A stretch of 64,000 bases of DNA from an uncultured Flavobacteriaceae bacterium (GTDB taxonomy: Bacteria; Bacteroidota; Bacteroidia; Flavobacteriales; Flavobacteriaceae). The stretch is taken from NCBI GenBank assembly GCA_942492425.1, contig CALOEQ010000016.1, forward strand, positions 43,156 to 107,155. Direction: 5' to 3'. The notes beneath the pieces were generated by a model. The model ran no database searches, was not told the origin of the DNA, and saw nothing but the letters and a program-made list of their open reading frames with translations. The stretch's first letter is position 1, and every line of letters begins with the position of its first letter. Positions 5,384 through 63,222 of the stretch are shown here, in pieces. The position numbers were made by a program, and so were the translations under genes.

Positions 5384-6021
5384 GATTGTATGTCTTTAAA
5401 ATCCTTTATAAATACCTTTAGTTTCTCTATGTCTTTCATTCCGGGAAACAGCTCAAACCGACTGTTCACATCAATGGCGTGACACATTCCTGATTTTTCA
5501 GATTTACTGAAGTCCTTGAGAGCTTCAATATCATCGGGCCCTATGCCTCCACTCAGAAAAAACTTGGTTTTCAATGGGTATCCCGATAAAAGCTCCCAGT
5601 TGAACTGTATTCCATTACCTCCTCGTTCTTTACCCTTCGTGTCGAGCAAAAAGTAGTCGCAAACCGCTTCGTAAGGCTTCAGTTGCTCCCAGCTCATCGA
5701 ATCCCCAACGGGAAACGCTTTGATGATTTTCACTTCCGGATCCTCTAGCCGAGCCCTTAGTTTCTCAACATAGTCGGGGCTTTCCTCACCGTGAAGCTGT
5801 ATGCCCGCGAGTTGATTGGAACGCACCATTTCTACAACCTCGTCTTCTTCCTGGTTCACAAAAACACCTATTTTTTCAATTCCTTCACGGATTTCAGGAA
5901 GCTCTGCCTCGACAAATCTTTTGGAACCGGAAAAAAACAGGAAACCCATATAATCTGGGTGCAGCGCCTCCAGCTCATGAATATTCTCGTTGTATTTCAT
6001 GCCACAGACCTTGATTTTCAT
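5380..6021 (-). CDS. trpF: Phosphoribosylanthranilate isomerase
   Basis: [35 protein letters not shown]; 4-bp overlaps with neighbours. Confidence 0.96.
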
Positions 6022-6806
6022 GCTCCGGTCGATTTTATAAATTCTTCAGCCGCGGCTCCGGGATTCTCCGTTTTCATGAAATTCTCACCGATCAGGAAGC
6101 CTTTGAACCCGTAGTCACGAAGTTCCTTGATCGCTCGAGGATCGCTGATCCCACTCTCCGAAACGGCCAGTTTATCCCCGGGAATGATCCCGGATAATTT
6201 CTTGCTCGTCTCAAGGCTTACCTCAAAGGTCTTGAGATTCCTGTTGTTCACGCCGACGAGGTCAATGTGGGTCAAATCGTTCCTTTTCAATTCTTCTTCC
6301 CCATGAACTTCCATGAGAACCTCCAGGCCCAGATCATGGGCGACCTGTGAGAGCATTTTCAACTGTTCCGGTTTCAATACTGCGGCGATGAGCAGGATCA
6401 CATCAGCTCCAAAGGCTTTCGCTTCGAAAAGCTGATACGGGTCAATCATGAAATCCTTCCTAAGCACCGGAATCTCGACCGCCGCACGTGCCTGCAGAAG
6501 ATCATCCAGGGACCCGCCAAAATACTTGGTATCGGTCAATACCGAGATTCCTGAGGCTCCGGCCGCTTGATATCCCGTCACGACTTCCGCAACACCACTC
6601 TTCTGGTTTATGACTTGTTTCGAGGGGGATCGACGCTTGAATTCCGCAATGATTCCGCTACCTTTCTGCAAGGATTCCCTCAAGGAAAAGGCCTCTCTCT
6701 CGATCATAGGCGAATTCCTGAGATAGTCCAGGGGAAGTACCGACTTTTTCAAATCAACCTCCACCCGCTTATCCGCAACTATTCTTTCTAAAATATTCAT
6801 CTTCAA
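6018..6806 (-). CDS. trpC: Indole-3-glycerol phosphate synthase
   Basis: IIAEFKRRSPSK, ISVLTD, LRKDFMID, GVNNRNLKTF, VSESGI. Confidence 0.98.
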   Translation of the reverse strand: MKMNILERIVADKRVEVDLKKSVLPLDYLRNSPMIEREAFSLRESLQKGSGIIAEFKRRSPSKQVINQKSGVAEVVTGYQAAGASGISVLTDTKYFGGSLDDLLQARAAVEIPVLRKDFMIDPYQLFEAKAFGADVILLIAAVLKPEQLKMLSQVAHDLGLEVLMEVHGEEELKRNDLTHIDLVGVNNRNLKTFEVSLETSKKLSGIIPGDKLAVSESGISDPRAIKELRDYGFKGFLIGENFMKTENPGAAAEEFIKSTGA

Positions 6807-6860
6807 ATGCCTCTTTTGTGGCTCTTCATTTTCAATCCTAATGGTTTCGTTCTTATCGTT

Positions 6861-7853
6861 CTAGTTATTCAGTTCCAGTAGCTTTTTGAAACTATCGAAG
6901 CCCCGTCCACTGAACATTGATTCCCGAGCTCGTTCAAAGCCCTCTTCATGCGTGATGCTCTCTGCGACGGCTATGGCCATTCCCGCATTGGCACAAACCA
7001 CATTGCTTTGCGCTTCCGTACCCTCTCCCTGCAATACCTTCAAAAACACATCGGCACTTTCCTTTACGGATGCCCCTCCGTGAATTTGTTCAGGTTTCAA
7101 GGCTTCCAGTCCGAGGTCTGCAGAGGAAATAATCCTCTCTTCACGGTTTGTTATTACCTTGGCCCGGTCGGTAAGTGAGATTTCATCATATCCCGCCAGG
7201 TCATGCAGAATGGCAAAATTCTTGTCTGTTGTCTGGTAGAGATAGCCGTACATTCGGGCCAGTTCCAGGCTGAATACCCCCACCATCTGGTTCTTCGGAA
7301 ATGACGGGTTCACCATCGGACCCAGCATGTTGAAAAAGGTTTTCACACCCAGCTCCCTTCGTATGGGAGCTACGGTCTTCATGGCCGGATGGAAAAGCGG
7401 TGCGTGCAAGATGCAGATACCCGCCCGGTCAATCGATCTTCTCAGGGTCTCCTCGTCGTTTGTGAAACGCACCCCCAGATGCTCCAGCACATTTGATGAT
7501 CCGCAGGTGGAAGAAACGCCATAATTGCCGTGCTTGGCCACTTTCACACCCGCACCGGCGGTTACAAATGAAGCGAGGGTGGATATGTTAAACGTGTCCT
7601 TTCCGTCACCCCCGGTGCCACAGAGGTCAATGGCATTGAAGTTCGACAGATCTATCGGCAAGCACATTTCAAGAAGAGCCTCGCGAAATCCGTCCAATTC
7701 CTCGACAGAAATGCTGCGCATCATGTACACCGTCAGGAAGGATGCGATCTGACTGGGATTGTAATTGTCTTTGGAGATATTCTTCAAAACCTCATTGGCC
7801 TCCTTTTTCGAAATGGTCTCCTGATTGATCAATCTGTTAAGAATCTCTTTCAT
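6861..7853 (-). CDS. trpD: Anthranilate phosphoribosyltransferase
   Basis: DLCGTGGDGKDTFNIST, AKHGNYGVSSTCGSS, FNMLGPMVNP. Confidence 0.98.
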   Translation of the reverse strand: MKEILNRLINQETISKKEANEVLKNISKDNYNPSQIASFLTVYMMRSISVEELDGFREALLEMCLPIDLSNFNAIDLCGTGGDGKDTFNISTLASFVTAGAGVKVAKHGNYGVSSTCGSSNVLEHLGVRFTNDEETLRRSIDRAGICILHAPLFHPAMKTVAPIRRELGVKTFFNMLGPMVNPSFPKNQMVGVFSLELARMYGYLYQTTDKNFAILHDLAGYDEISLTDRAKVITNREERIISSADLGLEALKPEQIHGGASVKESADVFLKVLQGEGTEAQSNVVCANAGMAIAVAESITHEEGFERARESMFSGRGFDSFKKLLELNN

Positions 7854-7918
7854 TCTTTACTAATTATCGATTGCTGTTAAATATGCCAATCGTTGTTTTG
7901 TTGTATTCAAGTTCATTT

Positions 7919-8494
7919 TCATTCTGTCTGTCCGATCCAGTTTTTGAGCATCGCCGTTCCATCCGGGGTCAGGATCGACTCGGGGTGATACTGAACCGCC
8001 CTCACATCAAACTCGCGATGTCTCAGGGACATGATCTCCCCGTTTTGATCCAGGGAAGTCACCTCCAGGCTTTCGGGCAAATCCCTTGAAACGACCCACG
8101 AATGATAGCGCCCTACTTCCATTTCTTTTGAAAGATTCTCATAGAGAACTTCGTCGTCAACCACTCGTTTGATGGTGGTGGCCACCCCGTGATAAACCTG
8201 GTCAAGGTTTACAAGTGAGCCTCCAAAGACCTCAGCAATCGCCTGTTGTCCGAGGCAAATCCCGAGGATGCTCTTGGTTGAGGCAAATTTTGCAATGATC
8301 TCTTTCAACATCCCTGCCTCATCGGGAATTCCCGGACCGGGTGACAGCAAAATTTTATCAAATTCCTCCACTTCCGACAATTCGAGCTTGTCATTTCTTT
8401 TCACCGCGACTTCACATCCGATTTCTTTCAGGCAGTGAACCAGGTTGTAGGTGAACGAATCGTAATTATCTATGACCAGAATCTTGTTCATCAT
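7919..8494 (-). CDS. trpG: Anthranilate synthase component II (glutamine amidotransferase)
   Basis: IDNYDSFTYNL, SPGPGIP, GICLGQQ, RYHSW, QYHPES. Confidence 0.98.
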   Translation of the reverse strand: MMNKILVIDNYDSFTYNLVHCLKEIGCEVAVKRNDKLELSEVEEFDKILLSPGPGIPDEAGMLKEIIAKFASTKSILGICLGQQAIAEVFGGSLVNLDQVYHGVATTIKRVVDDEVLYENLSKEMEVGRYHSWVVSRDLPESLEVTSLDQNGEIMSLRHREFDVRAVQYHPESILTPDGTAMLKNWIGQTE

Positions 8495-9891
8495 CAGATA
8501 TTTTCTGCGAGCTCCAATGCCTTTTTCAGGGCCCCCAACTTGTTATAAACTTCCTGCAGCTCATTCTGAGGCTCTGATTTCGCAACAATACCGGCTCCTG
8601 CCTGATAATAGAGCCTGTGGTTCTTGCTCAAAAATGAACGTATGATGATCGCGTGATTGAAATTGCCTTCAAAATCCATGAACCCAATCGCTCCACCGTA
8701 AAAGGTCCTGTTGCTCTTCTCATATTGATCGATGAGCTGCATCGCCTTGTGTTTGGGAGCTCCCGACAGCGTACCCGCCGGAAAGGTGTCTGCCACGACC
8801 TGGTAGGTCGGCACCTCCGGGTACTTCTCCCCGACAACCTTGGAAACCAGGTGAATCACATGCGAGAAAAACTGGATCTCCTTGTATCTCTCAACATTCA
8901 CATGCTCCCCGTTTCGGCTCAGGTCATTGCGTGCCAGATCGACCAGCATGACGTGCTCTGCATTCTCCTTTTCATCTTCCGCCAGGGACTTGGCCGCTTC
9001 AAGGTCCTTTTCATCATCTCCCGTTCTTTTGAAGGTTCCTGCAATCGGATGAATTTCTGCTTTCCCCTGATCGATAACCAGCTGGGCCTCAGGAGAAGAA
9101 CCGAAGATCTTAAAGTTCCCGTAGTCAAAGTAAAACAGGTAGGGTGACGGATTCACAGAGCGCAAGGCCCTGTAAACATTGAACTCATCCCCTTTGAAAC
9201 CCTGGGAAAACCGCCTGGACAGGACCAATTGAAACACATCCCCCCTGTAGCAATGCTTTTTTGCGAGTTCGACATGCTCGAGAAATTCTTCATCCGTCAG
9301 GTTGGACCACTCATCTTGTTCATTGCTGTAGGAATAGGAGGCGAAATTACGGGTCGAGATCAGCTGATGAATCTCTTCTGTATTGTCAGAACCATCGTAA
9401 ACATGAGAGAAAATATAGGCCTCGTTCTTGAAGTGATTGATCGCGATTATATTTTGATACACCGCATAATAGATATCGGGGATGTCGAGGTCCTCCTTCT
9501 TGGTGATCTCAATATCCTCGAAATACCTGACCGCATCGTAGGAAACGTAACCAAACAAGCCATTGTTTATGAACTTGAATGGCAGTTTCTCGGTTTCAAA
9601 TTGCTCCCCGAACGCCTGGATGATATCTGAAACTTTATTCTTTTTATTGAAATGCTCGTTTCTCGAGCTGCCATCCGGGAACAACTCGCGCACGCTCCCG
9701 TCTTTGATCTCGATGCTTGCTATCGGATTGCAGCAGATATAGGAAAAACTATTTTCATTTCCATGGTAGTCTGAACTCTCCAACAGAATGCTGTTCGGAT
9801 ACTTGTCCCTTATTTTCAGGTAAACACTCACAGGGGTCAGGGTATCCGCCAGGATCTTTTTAAAATCGGTTTTGAGTTTGAATTTTCTCAT
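8494..9891 (-). CDS. trpE: Anthranilate synthase component I
   Basis: LLESS, GDVFQLVLSRR, NPSPY, GSSPE, PIAGT, EHVMLVDLARND, FPAGTLSGAPK. Start at MRKFKLK (9891); the longer track ORF runs through the attenuator. Confidence 0.97.
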   Translation of the reverse strand: MRKFKLKTDFKKILADTLTPVSVYLKIRDKYPNSILLESSDYHGNENSFSYICCNPIASIEIKDGSVRELFPDGSSRNEHFNKKNKVSDIIQAFGEQFETEKLPFKFINNGLFGYVSYDAVRYFEDIEITKKEDLDIPDIYYAVYQNIIAINHFKNEAYIFSHVYDGSDNTEEIHQLISTRNFASYSYSNEQDEWSNLTDEEFLEHVELAKKHCYRGDVFQLVLSRRFSQGFKGDEFNVYRALRSVNPSPYLFYFDYGNFKIFGSSPEAQLVIDQGKAEIHPIAGTFKRTGDDEKDLEAAKSLAEDEKENAEHVMLVDLARNDLSRNGEHVNVERYKEIQFFSHVIHLVSKVVGEKYPEVPTYQVVADTFPAGTLSGAPKHKAMQLIDQYEKSNRTFYGGAIGFMDFEGNFNHAIIIRSFLSKNHRLYYQAGAGIVAKSEPQNELQEVYNKLGALKKALELAENI

Positions 9892-9897
9892 TTGAAT

Positions 9898-9928
9898 CAA
9901 AAAAAAAGGCTTGTCGTGAAGACAAGCC
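9898..9928 (-). terminator. trp attenuator terminator hairpin
   Basis: Minus strand GGCTTGTC-TTCAC-GACAAGCC followed by a T run, just before the trpE start. Confidence 0.9.
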
Positions 9929-9958
9929 AGGATCATTTTATAATATACCGGTAACGCC

Positions 9959-10015
9959 TCACAAAATCTTGCTTTGCAAAGACCACCACCAGTTATGTAC
10001 GTTATTCATATTCAT
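9959..10015 (-). CDS. trpL: trp operon leader peptide (MNMNNVHNWWWSLQSKIL)
   Basis: 18-codon ORF with three consecutive TGG codons about 30 nt upstream of the terminator hairpin preceding trpE; alternative start at 10009. Confidence 0.85.
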   Translation of the reverse strand: MNMNNVHNWWWSLQSKIL

Positions 10016-10116
10016 GACGAAATTGTTGTTAATCGACATATTAACTTTTCGCGAAAGCAAATATAAAACAATTTTTATCGGCACGGAAAAAAAATTGAGC
10101 AACTTGCCAGGCTGAC

Positions 10117-11208
10117 CTAGGGTACCAGCTGCACTTGCTGCCAACCCGTCCCGTCGTGAAAGAAAAGGTCTCCACCAGTGCTCACATAGAGATCTCCGAG
10201 TGCCCCTGTCGGAGGCGCTGCCTGTGGTTCAAGTCTCATGACCCCGTTAATATGCACTTTTTGCTGTGGGCTCGAGGTTCCGACGCCCAAATTGCCCTCC
10301 ATATAGGAGTCTCCTGTATTGTCAGAATACAGCGCATAGCTGTTCCCGGCCACATTGGAAAATGGAGTTGAAATGTAGAGCGCATAGCTGTCGCCACCAA
10401 CCGATCCCGAGCCTGCTCCACCGATAAAGAGGCCGTAACCGTCACCTGTTATGGTTCCGTTGTTTGTAAAGAACATGGATCCGAGAGAAGGCTGTGACAT
10501 AGTTCCCCCAGATTGATTAAAGACACCTATATCGATTCCTCTGACCAAGTTGTAATAGTTCCCGCCCTCCTCATTCGTTGCCAAAGCGACAAAACCCGCT
10601 CCATAACCGATGTTGCTTCCGTTACTAATTTGAGGATCCAACATCCAGCCGCTGTGTTTATCGTTCCACTTCCGGCTCGGATTCTGAACAATTCCCTGGG
10701 TTCCTATCGCATAGTCAACCGTTGCAGGGCCCGTGATTCCTTGCAACGCTCCAAGGGCCTAAGGTGCGGCACTTGTTCCTGATCCACTCGTAAAAAGCAT
10801 CAATACGTGCAGCCGTATACCGTGTCGTCATTATCCTTTTCCGCGAACAAATAGTTTGTGAGCCTGACTGAACTGATTGAGTCCGATTCCAACCCGTCCA
10901 TCATAAAAAGCGATATCGTCCGGGTTGCCATCAACAAACTTCCCGACGCCGGGTTTTGACTCTGCCCAGGCTCCGTCAATGTACGACCAGAAACTTTGTG
11001 TATCTGTGTCGTATACCTTAAGGGCTTCAGCCGGATTTGCTATGGCTTCTCTTTGAGCAGTGGTCATTCTTGGCATCAAAAACCCCTTGTCTGCTGATGA
11101 AACTTCAAGTGCCGCCGAGGCATCGGGTGTTGTCGTACCAATACCCACCTGGGCATAAGCTGCTGAAATAACAAAGGTGAAAAGAACAAAAGTGATGATT
11201 TGTTTCAT
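10117..11208 (-). pseudogene. Frame-disrupted secreted VGIGT-repeat surface protein (two track ORFs, 10831..11208 and 10117..10746, from one gene); pseudogene or local sequencing errors
   Basis: Signal peptide plus AQVGIGTTTPDASAALEVSS...GFLMPRMTTAQR N-terminus and C-terminal GNLGVGTSSPQQKVHING. Both pieces are in the same frame, separated by stops at 10833, 10830 and 10761, with protein-like sequence in the other frames between them. Confidence 0.7.
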
Positions 11209-55443: not shown

Positions 55444-55515
55444 GCGAAAGTAGCTCAGGGGTAGAGCATCACCTTGCCAAGGTGAGGGTCGCGGGTTCAA
55501 ATCCCGTCTTTCGCT
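55444..55515 (+). tRNA. tRNA-Gly (GCC)
   Basis: Acceptor GCGAAAG/CTTTCGC, anticodon arm TCACC-TTGCCAA-GGTGA, T-loop GGTTCAAATCC; CCA not encoded. Confidence 0.97.
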
Positions 55516-55574
55516 CATAGAGATCAGATGATTATATGATTGATTTTCATCTTTTTGAAAGAAGATAGCGACCC

Positions 55575-55639
55575 GGTCGCCTGCCATGCCTTTCGGCAGG
55601 TAAACCGGCAGGCAGGGGTTCAAATCCCGTCTTTCGCTC
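55575..55639 (+). repeat. Direct copy of the tRNA-Gly 3' half interrupted by a 35-nt CTGCC...GGCAG palindromic insert
   Basis: GGTCGC (=55487-55492) + insert 55581-55615 + GGGTTCAAATCCCGTCTTTCGCTC (=55493-55516). Confidence 0.9.
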
Positions 55640-55662: not shown

Positions 55663-55748
55663 GCTCGGATGGTGGAATTGGTAGACACGTTGGACTTAAA
55701 ATCCAATGGACAGCAATGTCCGTGCGGGTTCAAGTCCCGCTCCGAGTA
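55663..55748 (+). tRNA. tRNA-Leu (TAA)
   Basis: Acceptor GCTCGGA/TCCGAGT, anticodon arm TTGGA-CTTAAAA-TCCAA, long variable arm, GGTTCAAGTCC. Confidence 0.97.
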
Positions 55749-55754
55749 CAAATG

Positions 55755-55791
55755 AAAAAAGACCAGGTCGAAAGACCTGGTTTTTTGTTTT
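55755..55791 (+). terminator. tRNA operon terminator
   Basis: GACCAGGTC-GAAA-GACCTGGT followed by TTTTTGTTTT. Confidence 0.9.
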
Positions 55792-55830
55792 AGAGCGGTC
55801 GCGTAGAGCTCGCTCTTAAGCGATCGCGAG

Positions 55831-55915
55831 AAAACAAAAAACCCGGGCCGCGTAGCGCCCAGGTCTTTTTTCTCAGCTTGTTCGGACGGGACTCAGCGAA
55901 GCTAATTCCCGCATT
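55831..55915. repeat. Left copy of the island-flanking repeat (degenerate inverted copy of tRNA-Leu 3' end plus terminator)
   Basis: 55854-55915 is identical to 61525-61586 (62 bp); block-wise reverse complement of 55723-55791. Confidence 0.92.
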
Positions 55916-55962
55916 TCGGACGGGACTCAGCGAAGCTAATTCCCGCCTTTCAGACGGGACTC
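55881..55962. repeat. 34-bp tandem repeat, about 2.4 copies
   Basis: TTCGGACGGGACTCAGCGAAGCTAATTCCCGC(A/C)T at 55881 and 55915, partial TTCAGACGGGACTC at 55949. Confidence 0.9.
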
Positions 55963-56188
55963 GCCGCAGGCAAAACCGCTCCCAACTTCACAAAACAATT
56001 AAGCATAGCTCGCTCAAAAGTGATTTAGAGAAAAACAAAAAATCGGAGGCGCAGCGAATGATTTTTTCTCTGACTTTGTTCGGAGGAGAAAGAAAGCCTG
56101 GCGTATGGAGCTTTGGGTTTAATGGGTTGCATTTGCTTCATTTATTTGTACGTCATTTCTACTCTACTGAATTGATTTCAATTCTGAT

Positions 56189-57139
56189 TTATACTTGTCG
56201 TTCAAATGACTCATCAATAATACCTCTCAAATGCTCGAGTAATTCCGGTGAAGGTGTTTGGTAATCCTGCAATTCGTACACCTTGCCCAAAAACTCATAT
56301 TTACCAAGACCAAATCGGTGATAAGGAAGCAACTCATAATCAATCACGTTTTTATAAGGTTTGATAAACTCCAGAACAGCGCGGACATGTCCTTCGTCCG
56401 CATTAATACCGGGTATTAGGGGTGTGCGAGTGATAAATTCCGTATTGGGAAATTTCTCATATGCTTTTTTGAAATTTTCAAGTAGCCGTTCATTACCTAC
56501 GCCCGTCCACTTTTTGTGGCGATTCGAATCCATCAATTTATTATCGTGTAGCATTAAATCAACATAAAGTAAAACTTTCTCCATGTATTCCCAGGGCACA
56601 TTTCCGGCTGTTTCAATGGCTGTATGAATGCCGCTTTCTTGAGCTCCGCGCAAAATGGCTGCAGTAAAATCGGGTTGCAACAGACACTCTCCGCCACTAA
56701 TGGTCACTCCACCACCGGTATTGCGGTACATGCTTTCGTCTTTTAATGCTTCGTCAAGCACTTCGCGTGCAGTCATTAATTTACCGAACATACCTATTGC
56801 TCCGGTAGGGCACAATTCTGCCAATTCTTCCGTACATGAGTTGGCTAAATCCCAGTTCGCTTTTACTTTATCATCATCATCTCCTTCTGATACATAAAAT
56901 GCTCCTTTGGGAAATGGTTCTTTAAGACAAACACCGCATTCTGCTGCTCCTTTGCAGAGTTTTCGACTAAAATCCAGTTCTGGTTTTGGTTTGATACTTT
57001 CGGGGTTGCTGCACCATTTGCAACGCAGGGAGCATCCTTTCACGAATACAGTGGTTCGGGTTCCGGGTCCGTCTTCTCCGCAGTATCGCTGAATATTCAG
57101 CACGCGTCCTGTTATATCTAAATAGTTTTGATCTTCCAT
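56189..57139 (-). CDS. Glycyl-radical enzyme activating protein (radical SAM, with ferredoxin-like insert)
   Basis: DGPGTRTTVFVKGCSLRCKWCSNPES (CxxxCxxC), insert CKGAAECGVC...CPTGA, GGVTISGGEC, HTAIETAG, ELLPYHRFG..KY. Confidence 0.96.
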   Translation of the reverse strand: MEDQNYLDITGRVLNIQRYCGEDGPGTRTTVFVKGCSLRCKWCSNPESIKPKPELDFSRKLCKGAAECGVCLKEPFPKGAFYVSEGDDDDKVKANWDLANSCTEELAELCPTGAIGMFGKLMTAREVLDEALKDESMYRNTGGGVTISGGECLLQPDFTAAILRGAQESGIHTAIETAGNVPWEYMEKVLLYVDLMLHDNKLMDSNRHKKWTGVGNERLLENFKKAYEKFPNTEFITRTPLIPGINADEGHVRAVLEFIKPYKNVIDYELLPYHRFGLGKYEFLGKVYELQDYQTPSPELLEHLRGIIDESFERQV

Positions 57140-57149
57140 GATTCTCGTA

Positions 57150-58301
57150 TTAAGCTCCTGTGTAAATTCCCAATGCCCGTGCTACTCTCATAAATTCATT
57201 ATCTGTGCTCACGGTGCGTTTTTTATTCAGCGCATCAATTAGCGGTACAAAGTCAATATGAGGCGGTACAAATGCCGCCAAGGTGCCAAACTTGTTATCC
57301 TCAAGCGCTTTTACAGAAGCAGCACCATAGGCCAGTCCCAGTTGACGGTCAACCGCTGTGGCCTCACCGCCACGAGTCCACGGACCGAGCACCAGTGGAA
57401 AAACCTCATCTGACATTAACTGTTGCAAAGCATTCGCCAGTGTTTTGGCTGCTTTCCCGCTCTTGTTGATGACAAATTCATTACTTTCTTCTGTAGCCAG
57501 CGGGGACAGCGCCTTTTTCAAATCGTCAAGGGTATCACTTGTAACTCCGGGAAGATTTGTGAACGAACTCCCTTCTGCAACCACCACGAGGGCATAAGAG
57601 TGATCAGACGTAATCCTGGATTGAAGTTGTTTCGCAAGTTTATTTACATCACATGGGAATTCGGGCAATACGACTGCATCAGACAAGACAGCAATGCCGC
57701 TTTGCAATGCCAACCAGCCAGCCTGTGATCCAAGGACTTCAACGATCCCGATTTTTTTTGATGAAATGGCTCCTTGTTTCGCCCTGTCGAGCATTTCGAT
57801 ACTAAAGCTAAGGGCAGTATTGAAACCAAAAGCCACAGCAGTGGACGCCATATCATTTTCAACCGTTCTTGGAATGCATATTGATTGCAAACCCTTGAGG
57901 TTCAATTTGTGCAGGATACTTAATCCCCTACCCATCATGATGGCGATTACCGCATCGATTTTTTCTTTTTTCAGATTTTCCAGAAGGGTATCAGACATGT
58001 CCACTTCTTCCACCATTTCCAGCTCGTTTATGGTCCGTACATTGAAGGGGTCGACAGTTGCTGCTGTACCCATGACATCGCTCCCCGTTGGGTTTAGTTT
58101 TTCTATGATATCAGGCCCCAGGTCAATTAATCCATCGTTCGGATATTTTTCAGGAAAGAGCAACCCTTCGAAACCGTCAAGTATACCTACTACTTCCCAA
58201 CCTGCTTTGTGTGCTGAAATAGCAGCTCCCATAATCATGGAATTGATGCCGGGAGTATACCCTTCCCCAATGGCGATAGCTATTTTCTTTATGGTTTTCA
58301 T
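57150..58301 (-). CDS. 6-phosphofructokinase-fold protein with degenerate catalytic motifs
   Basis: Collinear with PfkA group III (PG.N, G..DGFEGL, P.T.END, GF.TA, EV.G..AGWLAL, VVAEG, RGG..TA.DR.L), but GGD, GGDG, TIDND and MGR are altered. Confidence 0.85.
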   Translation of the reverse strand: MKTIKKIAIAIGEGYTPGINSMIMGAAISAHKAGWEVVGILDGFEGLLFPEKYPNDGLIDLGPDIIEKLNPTGSDVMGTAATVDPFNVRTINELEMVEEVDMSDTLLENLKKEKIDAVIAIMMGRGLSILHKLNLKGLQSICIPRTVENDMASTAVAFGFNTALSFSIEMLDRAKQGAISSKKIGIVEVLGSQAGWLALQSGIAVLSDAVVLPEFPCDVNKLAKQLQSRITSDHSYALVVVAEGSSFTNLPGVTSDTLDDLKKALSPLATEESNEFVINKSGKAAKTLANALQQLMSDEVFPLVLGPWTRGGEATAVDRQLGLAYGAASVKALEDNKFGTLAAFVPPHIDFVPLIDALNKKRTVSTDNEFMRVARALGIYTGA

Positions 58302-58324
58302 AATTACTTTCTTTAAGTATTATT

Positions 58325-58362
58325 AAAGATACAGTCGAGGGAAAACCCTCGACTGTATCTTT
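58325..58362. other. Perfect 17-bp intergenic hairpin directly after the GRE stop
   Basis: AAAGATACAGTCGAGGG-AAAA-CCCTCGACTGTATCTTT. Confidence 0.9.
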
Positions 58363-58367
58363 TGATT

Positions 58368-60842
58368 CTATTTAAATGTTTGCAACGTACGCTCAATGAC
58401 TTCGTTCTGAACGCCCACATCAAGTTTGGTAAAGAAGGCACTGAAACCGGCTACACGAACCACAAGGTCTCTGTAATTCTCAGGATGCTTCTGTGCATCT
58501 CTAAGCATATCGGTATCCAGACAGTTGAACTGAATGTGATAGCCGCCATTGTCGAACAAGGTTTTTACCAGACCCAAAATTTGATCTCTACCTTTTCGTG
58601 ATTTCAATTGGTCGGGTTGAACTTTCATGTTCATATGTGTGGCCGTCCATCTTACAGGATCGCCACCCATGGCAGCCGACATCACCAAAGCAGTTGGTCC
58701 ATTCACATCTGTACCTGGCATGGCCGACAGGCTGCCATCGGTAAGTGCCTGTCCGGCTTTTTTACCGGTAGGCAATGCACCGGTCACTTTACCCATCAGG
58801 TTGTGGATACTCTTGGTGTATTGGTCGAGTGATGTTTTGTACAGCTCGTCCTTACCGAGATAATTACCTCCGCCATCTACACTGTTGAAGGTATCCAGGA
58901 TACTATCATTGACTCTTCTCACCATCATATCCGCTTCATGGATATTATTTCCATACTTAGGCGCATCCACATACACCATCTTATGAACACGCTCATGCTC
59001 TCCTTCAAAGTTGGCGGCCAGTGCTGCCATTAATTCTTTCCAGCTCAGTTTCTTTTTATCGTATATCAAGTCCTTGACAGCCATTAAGCCATTCGCAGCA
59101 TCCACCTGTCCTACGGAGATTTGGGCTATGGTATAGTAGTTGGCCCCACCATGCCACACATCCAAACCGGATTCAAGGCAACCAATAGTCAGGCAAGAAC
59201 GCCACGTTGCAGGCAGGTATTCTGCCGCCAGCATACTGGCAATCCATGCTCCTCTACGAAGTACATCTTCACAGTATTGCAGTTGTTTTTCAAAGGCGGC
59301 ATACACATCCTCAAACGTTTTAAATGTTTCAGGATTGCCTGTTTTGGGACCTACCTGCTTTTGGGTACGCGGATCAAATCCATCGTTCAATGTTAATTCC
59401 AGTACTTTACCCAAATTTGGCTGACCTTCCACGGGGTGTCCGGTCTCGTAAGGAATATAGCTGCCCACACAGGCGCCTATACAGGTACGTCTGGCTTTTT
59501 CAAGCGACAACTTACCTGCTTTTGATTCAGGCCAGTTGTATAAGGCCCGTTTCACCATGGCCTCACCACTCACAAACTGCGGCATACCGATACCGGTGCC
59601 TATGACATCCAATACTTTCTCCAGCAACTTGCCGGGAGTTTTTGGCGTATGGCACAGCGTCAATGGCGGCTGCGGCAAGTGCAGATAATTGCTGGCATCG
59701 AGAATTACAAAGTCCATTTCGGCATGGGCATGCTCGCCATTTATATCATAACCTCCCAAGGTAATACTTTGTCCAAGGTCGGCCGAATTTTGCAATGCAA
59801 CCTTCTCTCCAAAGTAATAGCCGATCTCATTGAGTTTAAGAATCAGGTTTCTGAACATGAAGGTGGCATCCTCATAGGTAATCAGCCCGGCTTCTTTATC
59901 GCGCTGATAAAAGGGCTCCAGGTTTTGACCCAGGTACGCTTCAGAATATCCACAACCCACCTGTTCCATTTCGGCTATGATGTGGCAGAAGAAGTGTGCC
60001 TGCATGGCTTCACGTAGGTTTCGGGCCGGGTGCTCAGGAACACGCTCACAGGTTTCGGCCAGCGAAATCAATTCAGCTTTACGTGTTGGATTTGTTTCCT
60101 TTTCTGCCATTTCGCGCGCTTTTGCCGCATAGCGGTTAGCATAGCGCACAATGGCCTTCATGGTAATTAATGAGGCTTCATAGAAATAAAATTTCTCCTT
60201 GTTTGGCAAACGCATATCCAACTCATACATGCGTTCTTCCACATATTTAATCATACTGCCGAGGCCTTCATTATAAACCTTGGGGTAATTGAGGTTACCG
60301 CCACCTGCCGGCCAGTCAAAGAAGCTAATTACATAGCCTGAATCATAAATCGGTTTCGGATCAACGCCATAACGTTTTTCGTAAATTTCCAGAACCCGTG
60401 GTACCTGCGAACGTTCTGTCCAGTAGTCGAGCACCCATTGGTTGGCTTCCCGTTCTTCGGGTGTTTTTGAGTTTTCGATGGTGTTCTCTTCAATCATCCA
60501 GCCTACCTGCCATTCGGGGTAGGTGTAGATGGCATTGAGTGAGCCCGCCATAGCGCCAACCAGCAAGTTGTCGTCAATGTAAATCTTTTTGGTGTCGAGC
60601 AATTCTGCATTGAATTTGGCCCTGCGGATAATGTTGGGATAACCCTCAGTTTCCTGATACACCTTTTTCATGACGATCACTCGCTCAAAATCAATGGGAG
60701 GAGGTGTACTTCTCATCAATTCTTTGAGTACATCAATACGTTCATCGCTCGCATTCACTTTGGCTGTGCCTGCGTAAGGCTTGCCTTCTAATTTGCGTCC
60801 CGGCAATGTATAATATGGAATACCTGTTTCTGTAGTTTTCAT
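58368..60842 (-). CDS. Glycyl radical enzyme (PFL2/decarboxylase-type superfamily member, uncharacterised subclass)
   Basis: C-terminal GGYHIQFN...LRDAQKHPENYRDLVVRVAGFSAFF (Gly799), QSITLGG, LPQP, Cys loop CIGACVGS (Cys458), TDGSLSAMPGTDVNGPTA. Confidence 0.96.
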   Translation of the reverse strand: MKTTETGIPYYTLPGRKLEGKPYAGTAKVNASDERIDVLKELMRSTPPPIDFERVIVMKKVYQETEGYPNIIRRAKFNAELLDTKKIYIDDNLLVGAMAGSLNAIYTYPEWQVGWMIEENTIENSKTPEEREANQWVLDYWTERSQVPRVLEIYEKRYGVDPKPIYDSGYVISFFDWPAGGGNLNYPKVYNEGLGSMIKYVEERMYELDMRLPNKEKFYFYEASLITMKAIVRYANRYAAKAREMAEKETNPTRKAELISLAETCERVPEHPARNLREAMQAHFFCHIIAEMEQVGCGYSEAYLGQNLEPFYQRDKEAGLITYEDATFMFRNLILKLNEIGYYFGEKVALQNSADLGQSITLGGYDINGEHAHAEMDFVILDASNYLHLPQPPLTLCHTPKTPGKLLEKVLDVIGTGIGMPQFVSGEAMVKRALYNWPESKAGKLSLEKARRTCIGACVGSYIPYETGHPVEGQPNLGKVLELTLNDGFDPRTQKQVGPKTGNPETFKTFEDVYAAFEKQLQYCEDVLRRGAWIASMLAAEYLPATWRSCLTIGCLESGLDVWHGGANYYTIAQISVGQVDAANGLMAVKDLIYDKKKLSWKELMAALAANFEGEHERVHKMVYVDAPKYGNNIHEADMMVRRVNDSILDTFNSVDGGGNYLGKDELYKTSLDQYTKSIHNLMGKVTGALPTGKKAGQALTDGSLSAMPGTDVNGPTALVMSAAMGGDPVRWTATHMNMKVQPDQLKSRKGRDQILGLVKTLFDNGGYHIQFNCLDTDMLRDAQKHPENYRDLVVRVAGFSAFFTKLDVGVQNEVIERTLQTFK

Positions 60843-60887
60843 TTGAATAAATTATTAAGTTAAAAAATGAGTTTATTAATACTTATC

Positions 60888-61079
60888 CTAAGCGCGAACT
60901 GTCAGCCAAGGCACCAGCGACTTTCGGCAGTTTGGCCATGGTGTGCTTTCAGCCGGTGTAGTTCTCATAATTTCTTTTAAGGTGTCAATGCAAGCAGTAT
61001 CTGCGTTTACTTTTGCTTTAGAAATCTTTTTCGGACGAGCAACTAAACCTGCTTCTAAATTTTGATCTTTTTATGTCAT
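60888..61079 (-). pseudogene. Remnant of a second, diverged glycyl radical enzyme gene
   Basis: ATG-ACA-TAA, then an open frame containing AKVNADTACIDTLKEIMRTTP, 14/21 identical to GRE residues 27-47 (AKVNASDERIDVLKELMRSTP). Confidence 0.7.
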
Positions 61080-61506
61080 GATATTATTGTTTATTGCGAA
61101 TATTTCTATTAAAGTGAGTTATTTATCCTTCATCTTGTGATTACATTTTTTACCTGCGGTTCGACTGTCGAATAAGAGTAAATTTCGTAGGGCAGTGTTA
61201 AAGAATATGCATATTAAATTTATGAGTTAAAATCTTCCGAATCAATACTTATTATTTGGTATTTTTTGGATACATGACCTATTCTAAATACCAGGGAAAT
61301 TTGTCATATAAGTTTGACTCTATGGTGTTTTTTATAGTTCCTCGAAACGAAAAATTTTGTTGAATTTTTTTTCGGTAATATGATGGGCGATTTGGGCTTA
61401 TTATTAATTATTAAACCTTCGTTTATGAGCATATCTTTGAGGTTGTATATATCATGTAGGTTCTTATAGAAAGAGTTCGAGAACTGGAGCGTATGGGGTA
61501 AAAATG

Positions 61507-61586
61507 AAAAACCCCGGGACGCGGAGCGCCCAGGTCTTTTTTCTCAGCTTGTTCGGACGGGACTCAGCGAAGCTAATTCCCGCATT
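61507..61586. repeat. Right copy of the island-flanking repeat
   Basis: AAAAACCCCGGGACGCGG + 62-bp exact match to 55854-55915. Confidence 0.92.
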
Positions 61587-61606: not shown

Positions 61607-62044
61607 CTAAACCCCGAAAAGTTTTTCCGCCTTTCCTTTTACCAACCAGGAGGAGAAAATTTTCTTGCTTTTTCCATCTTTCTGCATTGCAAACCGAAAA
61701 CTGACTAACCCAGCAGATTTCCTGAACTGAATTTCGACTTTTTCTTCGGTAAAATCGAGAGGCTGAGCCTCTTCCGGCACACTGTCAAAACCCTTCAAAA
61801 CCAGGTTCTTGAGCTGCTGATAGTTGTTGTATTCATCCGGAAAATAAAAGCTTTTGTATTTTGGAAAACGCCTTTTCTTCGCATCGCGAAAGCGGATTTC
61901 ATACATCCCGTCTTGAAGGGTGCACTCGGCTTCCACCACATTCATCAGCCGAACTTCTCCAATGAATTTTTCCTCTTCCTGAGCCTGGATCAAGAGGGGA
62001 ACGAGCAGTATGAAAAGGGTGAGCCAGCTCCGGGTTGGATTCAT
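61607..62044 (-). CDS. Hypothetical secreted protein
   Basis: Signal peptide (WLTLFILLVPLLIQAQ); start taken at MNPTRSW. Confidence 0.75.
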   Translation of the reverse strand: MNPTRSWLTLFILLVPLLIQAQEEEKFIGEVRLMNVVEAECTLQDGMYEIRFRDAKKRRFPKYKSFYFPDEYNNYQQLKNLVLKGFDSVPEEAQPLDFTEEKVEIQFRKSAGLVSFRFAMQKDGKSKKIFSSWLVKGKAEKLFGV

Positions 62045-62163
62045 TTTCTGTTTCATTTTTGATCTCATGACCGAAAGGTATAAAATTGATCCGTAAACCT
62101 GGCTGTAATCTCCTTCTCAACAAAATGACTAGAAATTAGCGTATTATCCTCATTTTTTGTAAA

Positions 62164-63222
62164 TTGAAGGATATGTTTACTCGACTTACAAACCCAATTC
62201 TCCTGGTCCTATTTTTGCTGACCGGAATATCTTTTGCACAGGGCACTTCAGACATCCTGTTTTCTGAACCTGCTGCCAACTCCTCTGACCCAGCGGATCT
62301 CTTGACCCTTAGACTTGAAATCCCCATTAAGACCCTGAGAAAAGAAACCAACGACAGCACCTTTACGTCGAGCACGATTTATTTTAAAGAACAGAGCACC
62401 TGGGACTCTCTGCCTGTTGAATTGAGAACCCGCGGAGAATTCAGAAGGAAGAAGTGCATATTTCCTCCGGTTAAAATCAAGTTTTCCAAGAAAGACATTG
62501 AAAACACATTGTTTGACAGCAACAGGAAGCTGAAACTGGTGGTTCCCTGTCGACATGAGGAGGCTAAAAACGACAATGTTGTCAAGGAGTATTTGGCCTA
62601 TAAATTGTATGAACCCGTTACTCCATACCATTTTAAGACGCGGCTTGTCAACCTCGAATGGTCCCAAAAAGCTTCCAAGAAGAAATCCGGTCACGAATTG
62701 AAGGCCATTTTGCTGGAGGACCTGGATCACCTGGCTGATAGAGTGGGTGGCGATGCCTACGATCGAAACGTCCATCCTATGCGGCTGGATACTTTGAACG
62801 GGATTCGAAATGCCTTTTTTCAGTACATGATCGGCAATGCAGATTATTCGGTAACGCAGGGTCACAACTACAAGATCATCTACCACAATGAAAAATTTCT
62901 GGTCATCCCCTATGACTTTGACCTGGCGGGTTTGGTCAATGCCGATTACGGGAAGTCATCGGACGTTCAAAACCTGCGTTTCATGGGAGACCAACCCGCC
63001 GACAGAATCTATCGGGACTTTCCTCGTAATCCGGCTCTGGTAGAGCAAGTTCGGCAGGAATACCTGAGCAACAGAGAAGCCATTTTTCTTGCACTTCAAA
63101 ATACCAAAGGCTTCTTTGACAATGAAGATGAATACGCAGAAGCGGAACTTTACCTCACAAAATTCTACCAGGTTCTGGAAGATGACAAGAAATTCAACAG
63201 GGTAATAATCAATAGCAAATGA
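62164..63222 (+). CDS. Secreted hypothetical protein with CotH-like atypical kinase motifs
   Basis: Signal peptide, RGEFRRKKC.FPP.KIKF, KLVVPC, EYLAYKLY, FQYMIGNADY, HNYK, IPYDFDLAG. Confidence 0.65.
   Translation: MKDMFTRLTNPILLVLFLLTGISFAQGTSDILFSEPAANSSDPADLLTLRLEIPIKTLRKETNDSTFTSSTIYFKEQSTWDSLPVELRTRGEFRRKKCIFPPVKIKFSKKDIENTLFDSNRKLKLVVPCRHEEAKNDNVVKEYLAYKLYEPVTPYHFKTRLVNLEWSQKASKKKSGHELKAILLEDLDHLADRVGGDAYDRNVHPMRLDTLNGIRNAFFQYMIGNADYSVTQGHNYKIIYHNEKFLVIPYDFDLAGLVNADYGKSSDVQNLRFMGDQPADRIYRDFPRNPALVEQVRQEYLSNREAIFLALQNTKGFFDNEDEYAEAELYLTKFYQVLEDDKKFNRVIINSK

What the first reader, a model, noticed from the sequence alone, without database searches (positions are those of the whole stretch)
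55854..61586. Integrase-free anaerobic-metabolism cassette bounded by a perfect 62-bp direct repeat at tRNA-Leu
Seen: 55854-55915 equals 61525-61586 exactly (about 80 bp with a few mismatches). Between them lie only the activase, pseudo-PFK, GRE, a GRE remnant and an AT-rich leader. The DNA is visibly more AT-rich than the flanks and there is no recombinase gene. The repeat is not the usual direct copy of the tRNA 3' end but an inverted derivative (see next finding). The A/T-rich, SD-less starts of the GRE and PFK-like genes resemble Bacteroidota translation signals. Inference: a cassette acquired, possibly from an anaerobic Bacteroidota donor, by recombination at this repeat using a trans-acting enzyme or host recombination, and potentially excisable.
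Basis: partly seen in the sequence, partly recalled or inferred. Interest (0 to 1): 0.65.

Follow-up and report, generated by a model that had tools for sequence, protein, structure and literature searches.

The report
Acquired GRE operon in tRNA-Leu repeat array
A three-gene anaerobic enzyme operon was picked up from other bacteria and sits inside a small array of repeated terminator-like units next to a tRNA-Leu gene, a spot where related species carry other genes or none. The flanking "perfect repeat" is two copies of that host array, not the scar of a mobile element.

Summary
55854-55915 equals 61525-61586 exactly (62 nt; 85 nt at 94%), and the repeat occurs nowhere else in the 3.5-Mb genome. 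Only the activase, PFK-like gene, GRE and a 660-bp leader lie between the copies. No tyrosine recombinase is on the contig.

**Acquisition:** the operon is laterally acquired.
- It is present in 3 of 39 congeners and in 1 of 401 genomes sampled from the order.
- Other Bacteroidota genera carry GREs 94-95% identical in protein, in other genomic contexts.
- The three gene trees disagree, and GC3 is low.

**The repeat:** it is not made by the insertion. It is a roughly 115-bp host unit, a bidirectional terminator plus a small hairpin, derived from an inverted copy of the tRNA-Leu 3' end and terminator. It forms arrays of 1-5 tandem copies after tRNA-Leu in about 14 congeners. Some arrays are empty, and others hold unrelated cargo.

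**Mechanism:** a distant congener has the same cassette between units, but a different gene lies beyond the distal unit. So recombination happened in the units, probably by host homologous recombination.

**Host:** it is itself a Flavobacteriaceae-type Bacteroidota that rarely uses Shine-Dalgarno sites, so SD-less starts say nothing about the donor.

The parts
55444..55516 (+). tRNA-Gly(GCC), conserved left anchor of the locus
   Evidence: ARAGORN; Rfam tRNA 71.5 bits. Syntenic with UbiA/COX genes in all congeners examined.
55663..55749 (+). tRNA-Leu(UAA). The repeat array begins just downstream of it.
   Evidence: The only tRNA-Leu(UAA) in the genome.
55762..55781 (.). Intrinsic terminator hairpin of tRNA-Leu. 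It is one arm of the roughly 190-nt imperfect palindrome formed with unit A.
   Evidence: terminator scan; 55723-55915 folds as one long hairpin, -93 kcal/mol.
55831..55915 (.). Left repeat copy (unit A). It has an A-run, a hairpin, a T-run (a terminator on both strands), a linker ending in TTCGGA, and the small hairpin CGGGA-CTC-AGC-GAA-GCT-AAT-TCCCG.
   Evidence: Minus-strand terminator at 55869-55836. Inverted derivative of the tRNA-Leu 3' end plus terminator: z=14 inverted, 0.7 direct. 95.7% identical to the single unit of congener G009.
55915..55983 (.). Two 34-bp short units (small hairpin only); the second is degenerate
   Evidence: family D1. The same short units occur in G005, G001 and metagenome contig L058.
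56007..56089 (.). Terminator-only partial unit (unit B), cut off after TTCGGA. It sits directly downstream of the operon and marks the left junction of the acquired DNA.
   Evidence: families D3 and D4. Homology with the G010 cassette starts at 56074. Both genomes read ...TCGGA|GGAGA... at this junction.
56189..57139 (-). Glycyl-radical-enzyme activase (radical SAM)
   Evidence: Pfam Radical_SAM and Fer4_12. TIGR02494 at 309 bits against a cut-off of 174. GC3 0.37, 3rd percentile of the genome.
57150..58301 (-). PFK-family protein, always found between the GRE and the activase in this operon type
   Evidence: Pfam PFK 185 bits. Below every NCBIfam equivalog cut-off. Its nearest relative is in a Cytophagales-labelled MAG, not in G010.
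58325..58362 (.). Perfect 17-bp hairpin between the GRE and the PFK-like gene
58368..60842 (-). Glycyl radical enzyme of an uncharacterised subclass
   Evidence: Pfam PFL-like 459 bits and Gly_radical 90 bits. The best NCBIfam hit is HypD at 461 bits against a cut-off of 1100. 94-95% aa identity to MAGs of other genera.
60843..61501 (-). AT-rich leader.
- 60843-61089 is shared with cassettes of other genera and holds the GRE-like remnant at 60954-61016.
- 61384-61462 is shared only with G010.
- The LuxR/PAS regulator and the 184-aa gene of the full five-gene block are missing here.
61502..61586 (.). Right repeat copy. This unit is the 3' UTR and terminator of the 153-aa gene.
   Evidence: Minus-strand terminator at 61531-61511. 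In G007 and G009 a unit sits in the same place, 5 nt after the stop codon of the orthologous gene.
61607..62068 (-). 153-aa secreted protein of unknown function, the first host gene to the right
   Evidence: Orthologues of 59% (G007) and 67% (G009) identity. No Pfam or NCBIfam hit.
62164..63222 (+). CotH-like protein, a host gene
   Evidence: Pfam CotH. Orthologues of 74% (G005) and 84% (G009) identity at the same place.

Best explanation
**What it is.** The 5.7-kb interval is a laterally acquired, cut-down glycyl-radical-enzyme operon (GRE, PFK-like protein, activase). It is lodged inside a host-specific array of roughly 115-bp repeat units between tRNA-Leu(UAA) and the first downstream gene.

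**The unit.** Each unit is a bidirectional intrinsic terminator plus a small hairpin. It derives from an inverted copy of the tRNA-Leu 3' end and its terminator.

**The two copies of the '62-bp direct repeat'.** Both are units of this array. The left copy is the tRNA-proximal unit. The right copy ends the transcript of the neighbouring 153-aa gene.

**Shown.**
- The units predate the cassette and belong to the recipient genus.
- The region to their right is a plasticity zone. Congeners carry nothing there, or unrelated cargo that is transcribed towards the tRNA.

**Inferred.**
- A five-gene block (LuxR/PAS regulator, 184-aa protein, GRE, PFK-like, activase) entered the array once.
- It then moved between distant congeners by recombination within the units, which serve as portable homology.
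- In this genome it lost its regulator end through recombination with a second cassette type.
- The enzyme is most likely the host's own homologous recombination, or homology-facilitated illegitimate recombination, acting on incoming DNA.
- The long tRNA/unit palindrome may make the site fragile.
- The perfect 62 nt reflects concerted evolution between units.
- Two 62-85-bp direct repeats should allow rare RecA-type deletion.
For: **The repeat is real and confined to this locus**
-.

**The units belong to the host**
- The GGGACTC-N8-11-AATTCCC core occurs in about 14 of 39 congeners. It is always at one locus after tRNA-Leu, in 1-5 tandem copies with a period of 110-120 bp.
- It is absent beside the cassette in other genera.
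- A narrower pattern, which also misses this genome's own units, found it in no other genus among about 300 genera of the family.

**Arrays exist without cargo**
- In G007, two units are followed directly by the 153-aa orthologue.
- G049 and G050 also have arrays without cargo between the units.

**Other cargo lies between units**
- G009/G005 carry a 328-aa protein, G054/G010 a phosphotriesterase, and G016 a DUF6090 protein.
- Synteny breaks right after the units in nearly every congener.

**The cassette is laterally acquired**
- It is in 3 of 39 congeners and 1 of 401 genomes of the order.
- Other genera have 94-95% aa and 81-90% nt identity in other contexts.
- The gene trees are incongruent and the identity profile is mosaic: 99% in the GRE 5' part but 71-74% in PFK against G010.
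- GC3 lies at the 3rd to 12th percentile of the genome.

**The cassette is younger than the G000/G010 split**
- Synonymous difference is 0.59 for the activase, against 0.77-0.90 (saturated) for three flanking genes.

**Recombination took place in the units**
- G000 and G010 share junction DNA that no other cassette has: 56074-56188 and 61384-61462.
- Beyond the distal unit their flanks are unrelated: the 153-aa gene in G000, the phosphotriesterase in G010.

**No fixed crossover point**
- The phosphotriesterase cargo joins the units at different positions in G010 and G054.

**No recombinase nearby**
- None is on the contig or beside any tRNA-Leu.

**Adjacent units are near-identical elsewhere too**
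- G054, G010 and G049 show this, so units homogenise.
Against: - No reads could be mapped, so neither deletion nor circular forms were looked for.
- The left junction falls after the same TCGGA in both G000 and G010. The unit derives from a tRNA 3' end, the classic integrase target. Both facts would also fit a site-specific enzyme acting in trans.
- All cargo is co-oriented and each block is followed by a unit. This is more order than random illegitimate insertion predicts.
- One metagenome contig carries the same unit set away from any tRNA-Leu, so the units may themselves move.
- Most congeners are fragmented MAGs, so 'absent' is less certain than in finished genomes.
- How the first foreign block entered the array is not shown.
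Confidence: 0.62

Rival explanations
1. Site-specific mobilisation in trans, like a cis-mobilisable element (CIME) or an integron-like platform. The units would be pseudo-att sites derived from the tRNA-Leu 3' end. A recombinase encoded elsewhere, or on a visiting conjugative element, would insert and excise unit-bounded cargo.
For: - The unit is a significant inverted derivative of the tRNA-Leu 3' end and terminator (z=14).
- The left junction follows TCGGA in both G000 and G010.
- Cargo blocks are co-oriented and each is followed by a unit.
- The small hairpin keeps its pairing through coordinated changes: AGC/GCT against GCC/GGC, with 14 cells changed on both sides and 0 of 500 shuffles as high.
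- Classic att-like scars exist at this locus. One is the 24-bp direct copy of the tRNA-Gly 3' end at 55616-55639. Another is a direct partial tRNA-Leu 3' copy after the units in G001.
Against: - The units are inverted, not direct, relative to the tRNA.
- There is no recombinase on the contig or near any tRNA-Leu.
- The crossover positions of other cargo differ between genomes.
- Cassette copies in other genera carry no unit.
- The unit lacks the integron attC core pair RYYYAAC...GTTRRRY; it reads GTTCGGA instead (by eye on the sequence).
- The covariation rests on two unit types, so it reflects few independent events.
Confidence: 0.2
2. The units travel with genes as a mobile 3' module (terminator plus hairpin). 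They would be a MITE-like or 3'-UTR element that spreads locally and brings cargo along, so the array is built by the element and not by the host site.
For: - Each cargo block has a unit or a terminator-only unit at its 3' end.
- A metagenome contig has the same unit set, 95% identical, between two unrelated convergent genes with no tRNA-Leu.
Against: - Each genome has only one locus with units.
- The same cargo in other genera has no units.
- There are no terminal inverted repeats and no target-site duplication of fixed length.
Confidence: 0.08
3. The cassette is ancestral at this site in the genus and was lost many times by recombination between the flanking units. There would have been no lateral transfer within the genus.
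For: - G000 and G010 share both junctions.
- Direct repeats would make deletion easy.
Against: - The cassette is at this site in only 2 of 39 congeners, in two separate subclades whose nearer relatives lack it.
- Synonymous divergence is lower than in the flanks.
- The GRE 5' part is 99% identical between genomes whose flanks are 71% identical.
- The gene trees are incongruent.
Confidence: 0.07
4. Assembly artefact: the cassette was joined to this locus wrongly through the repeat.
For: - The genome is a draft of 21 contigs.
- Reads could not be checked.
Against: - The repeat is 62-85 bp, shorter than a read.
- An independent assembly (G010) has the cassette between units beside the same tRNAs, with shared junction DNA.
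Confidence: 0.03

Closest known systems
tRNA-linked genomic islands and their integrase-less derivatives (cis-mobilisable elements, CIMEs, as described for the ICESt1/ICESt3 family in Streptococcus thermophilus; from my own knowledge)
   Same: - Foreign cargo lies next to a tRNA gene.
- It is bounded by direct repeats related to the tRNA 3' end.
- It has no integrase of its own.
- Its distribution among relatives is patchy.
- Several blocks sit side by side, as in tandem accretion.
   Different: - The repeats are inverted relative to the tRNA, not direct copies of its 3' end.
- They exist as tandem arrays without any cargo.
- No cognate integrase or conjugative element was found.
- The junction positions are not constant.
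Integron cassette arrays and CALINs (clusters of attC sites lacking an integrase)
   Same: - Co-oriented cargo blocks are each followed by a structured repeat with conserved ends and a variable, pairing-preserving centre.
- There is no integrase nearby.
- Cargo functions are unrelated to one another.
   Different: - The unit has no attC core sequences.
- It is a terminator.
- Cargo includes a multi-gene operon with its own regulator and promoter region.
- The genes point towards the fixed end of the array rather than away from it.
- Arrays hold at most two or three cargo blocks.
Chromosomal integration hotspots, or plasticity zones between conserved core genes, often beside tRNA genes, filled through homologous recombination at flanking homology (general comparative-genomics concept; from my own knowledge)
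   Same: - One flank is conserved (COX/UbiA/tRNA-Gly/tRNA-Leu).
- Content is hypervariable in congeners.
- Cargo is acquired by lateral transfer.
- There are no mobility genes.
   Different: A locally amplified, tRNA-derived repeat supplies short portable homology inside the hotspot. As a result, the same cassette sits next to different distal genes in two species.
Glycyl radical enzyme operons of the dehydratase/lyase group (HypD, CutC, HpsG and relatives)
   Same: - The GRE has PFL-like and Gly_radical domains.
- It has a cognate TIGR02494-type activase.
   Different: - It falls below all curated equivalog cut-offs.
- A PFK-family protein is always encoded between the GRE and the activase.
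- The full block also has a LuxR/PAS regulator and a 184-aa protein with no known family.

Membership tests
Integrase-mediated tRNA-integrated genomic island | A tyrosine (or serine) recombinase gene at one end of the island | tested here: not met
   The PF00589 search of the whole genome gave four hits, none on this contig. None is near a tRNA-Leu. Serine recombinases were not searched.
Integrase-mediated tRNA-integrated genomic island | Flanking direct repeats that are direct copies of the tRNA 3' end (attL/attR) | tested here: not met
   No second direct copy of the last 14-24 nt of tRNA-Leu exists in the window or the genome. The repeat aligns to the tRNA 3' end only when inverted (z=14, against 0.7 direct).
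Integrase-mediated tRNA-integrated genomic island | Patchy distribution and atypical composition | tested here: met
   Present in 3 of 39 congeners and 1 of 401 genomes of the order. GC3 lies at the 3rd to 12th percentile.
Cis-mobilisable element (CIME) | Bounded by att sites and devoid of integration or transfer genes | tested here: inconclusive
   It has no mobility genes. Whether the units are att sites for any enzyme is unknown.
Cis-mobilisable element (CIME) | A cognate integrative element using the same site in the same or related genomes | tested here: not met
   None was seen in G000 or in the 16 congener loci read. The genus was not searched exhaustively.
Integron / CALIN | attC sites with an RYYYAAC ... 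GTTRRRY core pair and extrahelical bases | tested here: not met
   The unit sequence reads GTTCGGA and has no inverse core. This was compared by eye; no attC model was run.
Integron / CALIN | IntI integrase and attI at the head of the array (integron), or at least two attC sites close together (CALIN) | tested here: not met
   There is no integrase, and the repeats are not attC.
Composite transposon or IS-bounded element | Transposase genes or IS copies at the ends, and a short fixed target duplication | tested here: not met
   There is no ORF in the repeats. The repeat is 62-85 bp and unique to this locus.
Dispersed intergenic repeats (REP/BIME type) | Many copies in intergenic regions across the genome | tested here: not met
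   Each genome has a single locus with units.
Glycyl radical enzyme system | A GRE with PFL-like and Gly_radical domains plus a radical-SAM activase | tested here: met
Characterised GRE subfamilies (HypD, CutC, HpsG/HpfG, PFL, HPAD, IAD) | A score above the curated equivalog cut-off | tested here: not met
   The best hit is HypD at 461 bits against a cut-off of 1100. All the others are also below their cut-offs.

The most novel reading that the evidence does not exclude
The tRNA-Leu-derived units would be true recombination sites of a cassette platform in this Flavobacteriaceae genus. Folded hairpin sites, comparable in role to integron attC, would be used by an unlinked recombinase to capture, shuffle and release gene blocks next to tRNA-Leu. 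This would be an integron-like system built from a tRNA 3' end and its terminator.
Probability: 0.1. Interest if true: 0.8.

Novelty: new variant of a known kind. Interest (0 to 1): 0.45.

Why it matters
- **Ecology:** an oxygen-respiring Flavobacteriaceae lineage gained an oxygen-sensitive radical enzyme operon. This shows one route by which anaerobic metabolism spreads among environmental Bacteroidota.
- **Caution for annotation:** a perfect direct repeat around foreign genes beside a tRNA need not be an att pair.
- **The repeat array:** it is an inverted copy of a tRNA 3' end plus terminator, amplified in tandem and separating unrelated cargo in different species. It is a compact natural case of short portable homology organising a plasticity zone.
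- **Testability:** recA dependence, loss frequency and terminator function could all be measured directly.
- **The operon:** this GRE, with its PFK-like partner, is uncharacterised and is exchanged widely and mosaically. That marks it as a candidate for biochemical study.

Tried and rejected
- **Metagenome scan.** I scanned for the 58-nt unit core hoping for conspecific empty sites. It gave one contig with the units in a different context and no empty site.
- **Rfam.** Nothing matched in the repeat region apart from the two tRNAs. The Leu_leader hit scored 23 bits against a cut-off of 50 and is chance.
- **First unit pattern.** It had a 10-nt centre and so missed the common 9-nt type. I redid it with a variable gap.
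- **Family-wide pattern.** It required one extra base after TCGGAC, so it misses G000-type units. Its negative result for other genera is therefore weak.
- **Literature.** Two searches for the GRE/PFK operon and for tRNA-Leu hotspots in flavobacteria found nothing relevant.
- **Direct att copies.** I searched the genome for direct copies of the tRNA-Leu 3' end and found none.
- **G000 as a simple deletion derivative of the G010 insertion.** I rejected this because the 250 bp upstream of the GRE in G000 matches a different cassette type, as in L032.
- **SD-less starts as a donor signal.** I rejected this.
Full report
**1. The observation**

The repeat is real. 55831-55915 and 61502-61586 are 85 nt at 94% identity. 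All five mismatches lie in the first 23 nt, so 55854-55915 equals 61525-61586 exactly (62 nt).

A BLAST of the 85-mer and a mismatch-tolerant search of the 35-nt core found no further place in the 3,503,691-bp, 21-contig genome. The only additions are the adjacent short copies at 55915-55949 and 55949-55983.

Between the copies lie three minus-strand genes:
- a radical-SAM GRE activase (56189-57139);
- a PFK-family protein (57150-58301);
- a GRE with PFL-like and Gly_radical domains (58368-60842).

There is also a 660-bp leader of 30-35% GC. It contains a 21-residue stretch resembling GRE residues 27-47 (60954-61016).

None of the genome's four tyrosine recombinases is on this contig, and none is near a tRNA-Leu.

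**2. What the repeat is**

Each copy has an A-run, a GC-rich hairpin and a T-run. The scan calls a terminator on the minus strand in both copies (55869-55836 and 61531-61511). These are followed by a linker ending in TTCGGA and a small hairpin, CGGGA-CTC-AGC-GAA-GCT-AAT-TCCCG.

The unit aligns with the reverse complement of the tRNA-Leu T-arm, acceptor 3' strand and terminator. The z-score is 14 inverted against 0.7 direct. Together, 55723-55915 folds as one long hairpin of -93 kcal/mol. This confirms an earlier first-reader note (e1-5163820).

Variants of the small hairpin differ by coordinated changes that keep the pairing: AGC-GAA-GCT against GCC-GNNA-GGC. Fourteen cells are changed on both sides, and 0 of 500 shuffles reach that. 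These are essentially two types, so the number of independent events is small.

**3. The repeat belongs to the host locus, not to the cassette**

The core GGGACTC-N8-11-AATTCCC occurs in about 14 of 39 genomes of the genus. It is always at one locus directly after tRNA-Leu, in 1-5 tandem copies with a period of 110-120 bp.

- G007 has two units, then five bases, then the stop codon of the orthologue of the 153-aa gene that follows the right copy here. That is an empty site with two units.
- G049 and G050 also have two units with no cargo between them.
- G054 has five tandem units and then cargo (see section 5).
- In G009, a unit 96% identical to the left copy follows tRNA-Leu. A diverged unit follows the 153-aa orthologue.

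So the left copy here is the tRNA-proximal unit, and the right copy is the 3' UTR and terminator of the 153-aa gene.

Cassette copies in other genera have no unit nearby. A narrower pattern found none in about 300 other genera of the family. That result is weak, because the pattern also misses this genome's own variant.

**4. The cassette is acquired**

- The GRE is present in 3 of 39 congeners. G000 and G010 have it at tRNA-Leu. G007 has a 68% copy elsewhere.
- It is present in 1 of 401 genomes sampled from the order, namely this one.
- GREs of 94-95% protein identity, with whole-cassette DNA identity of 81-90%, occur in MAGs labelled Flavobacteriaceae and Cytophagales. Eudoraea adriatica has 83%. 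These lie in at least two other genomic contexts.
- DNA trees of the three genes disagree. G000 groups with G010 for the activase, with a Cytophagales-labelled MAG for the PFK-like gene, and at the base of a tight seven-member clade for the GRE. The G007 copy is far away in all three.
- Along the cassette, G000 and G010 are 99% identical in the GRE 5' part but 71-74% in the PFK-like gene.
- Between G000 and G010, the synonymous difference is 0.59 for the activase. It is 0.77-0.90, that is saturated, for three flanking respiratory genes.
- GC3 is 0.37, 0.44 and 0.49 for the three genes against a genome mean of 0.56 (sd 0.07). Codon-usage distance lies at the 98th, 90th and 84th percentiles.

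**5. The site is a plasticity zone and recombination happened in the units**

The left flank (COX3, UbiA, tRNA-Gly, tRNA-Leu, units) is syntenic in every congener read. To the right of the units, synteny breaks almost everywhere.

Cargo found between units:
- a 328-aa secreted protein in G009 and G005;
- a phosphotriesterase-family gene in G054 and G010;
- a DUF6090 protein in G016.

All of these are transcribed towards tRNA-Leu, and each is followed by a unit or by a terminator-only unit.

G010 belongs to the other subclade of the genus (flanks 71% identical to G000). It carries the same cassette beside the same tRNAs. It shares with G000 two stretches of junction DNA that no other cassette has: 56074-56188 and 61384-61462. 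Beyond the distal unit, however, G010 has the phosphotriesterase gene where G000 has the 153-aa gene. The only homology on that side is the unit itself, so a crossover took place in it.

The junction of the phosphotriesterase cargo with the units differs between G010 and G054. This argues against one fixed cleavage point.

**6. History of this copy**

G010 has two more genes between the GRE and the distal unit: a 184-aa protein and a divergent LuxR/PAS regulator. The same five-gene block occurs in other genera (L035, L045, L047), so it is the functional unit.

G000 lacks both genes. Its 250 bp upstream of the GRE, including the GRE-like remnant, instead matches the cassette type seen in L032, L033 and L034. 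The copy here is therefore a mosaic, remodelled by recombination with a second cassette type. It is not a simple deletion product.

Paralogues of the two missing genes lie elsewhere in the genome, at C1:144.6-146.0 kb.

**7. The donor argument**

The host has at least 12 proteins with the type IX secretion sorting domain. Its family holds several hundred genera, and its congener G010 is labelled Flavobacteriaceae.

Only 7% of its long ORFs have an SD-like motif upstream, below the 13% background. Upstream regions are 66% A+T.

SD-less, A/T-rich starts are therefore native and say nothing about the donor. Even so, the closest cassettes are in Bacteroidota.

**8. Mechanism and rivals**

Most likely, with confidence about 0.6, host homologous or homology-facilitated illegitimate recombination acts on incoming DNA in a repeat-rich and possibly fragile palindromic site. 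The units provide portable homology, and they are homogenised by gene conversion. Neighbouring units are also near-identical in G054, G010 and G049.

A site-specific enzyme acting in trans, CIME-like or integron-like, is not excluded (about 0.2). Three facts speak for it: the unit's origin in a tRNA 3' end, the shared TCGGA junction, and the ordered, co-oriented cargo. Four facts speak against it:
- the inverted orientation of the units;
- the variable junctions;
- the lack of any recombinase;
- the lack of units on donor cassettes.

Vertical inheritance with many losses is disfavoured, and so is mis-assembly.

**9. Verdict**

This is a new variant of a known kind: an integrase-free acquired operon in a tRNA-adjacent hotspot. 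The boundaries of the hotspot are copies of a locally amplified, tRNA-derived terminator unit.

Noticed in passing
window 55493-55639: The last 24 nt of tRNA-Gly (55493-55516) recur exactly at 55616-55639, with 99 nt between the two copies. This 123-bp addition is present in G000, G007, G006 and G022. It is absent from most congeners, where tRNA-Gly and tRNA-Leu are about 22 nt apart. It looks like an att-type scar or a decayed tRNA copy.
   Followed up: partly
L026 (G001) 9500-9545: In the closest relative, the last short unit runs straight into a direct partial copy of the tRNA-Leu 3' end (TCCCGCTCCGAGTACAGAAT), about 200 bp after the real tRNA. Unrelated genes follow. It is an att-like direct repeat enclosing only the terminator and units.
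   Followed up: partly
L058 (metagenome contig Ga0316197_10056456) 2019-2143: The same unit set (one full and two short units, 95% identical to 55831-55974) lies between a gene with a T9SS-type C-terminus and a convergent gene. No tRNA-Leu is on the 2.5-kb contig. The units may not be strictly tied to tRNA-Leu.
   Followed up: partly
L024 (G010) 5983-7396; L035, L045, L047: The GRE operon is normally a five-gene block. A divergent LuxR/PAS regulator and a 184-aa protein of no known family lie upstream of GRE, PFK-like and activase. In Eudoraea adriatica, SAM synthetase and a ferredoxin/NAD-binding reductase follow the activase, and an aldose 1-epimerase lies upstream.
   Followed up: partly
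window 58368-60842 compared with L024, L031-L038: Cassettes recombine with each other across genera. For example, the Eudoraea PFK-like gene is almost identical to that of MAG L034 while its GRE is distant. The GRE 5' 600 bp is 95-99% identical among genomes whose other genes are about 70% identical.
   Followed up: partly
L024 (G010) 7429-11129: The GRE and the PFK-like gene of G010 are broken by several frameshifts and stops, while the activase is intact. This is either decay or long-read assembly error. It was not resolved.
   Followed up: no
window 58325-58362: A perfect 17-bp hairpin lies between the GRE and the PFK-like gene. The scan flags it as terminator-like on the plus strand only.
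   Followed up: no
window 62164-63222 and genome C14:159.5 kb, C10:5.6 kb, C9:482.5 kb: The CotH-like protein has three paralogues (32-34% identity) elsewhere in the genome.
   Followed up: no
genome C1:632755-634145: A tyrosine recombinase gene lies 0.5 kb upstream of a tRNA-Thr/Tyr/Gly/Thr cluster. A 35-nt stretch just after that cluster (C1:634166-634200) is 94% identical to window 55605-55639, part of the tRNA-Gly 3' copy.
   Followed up: no
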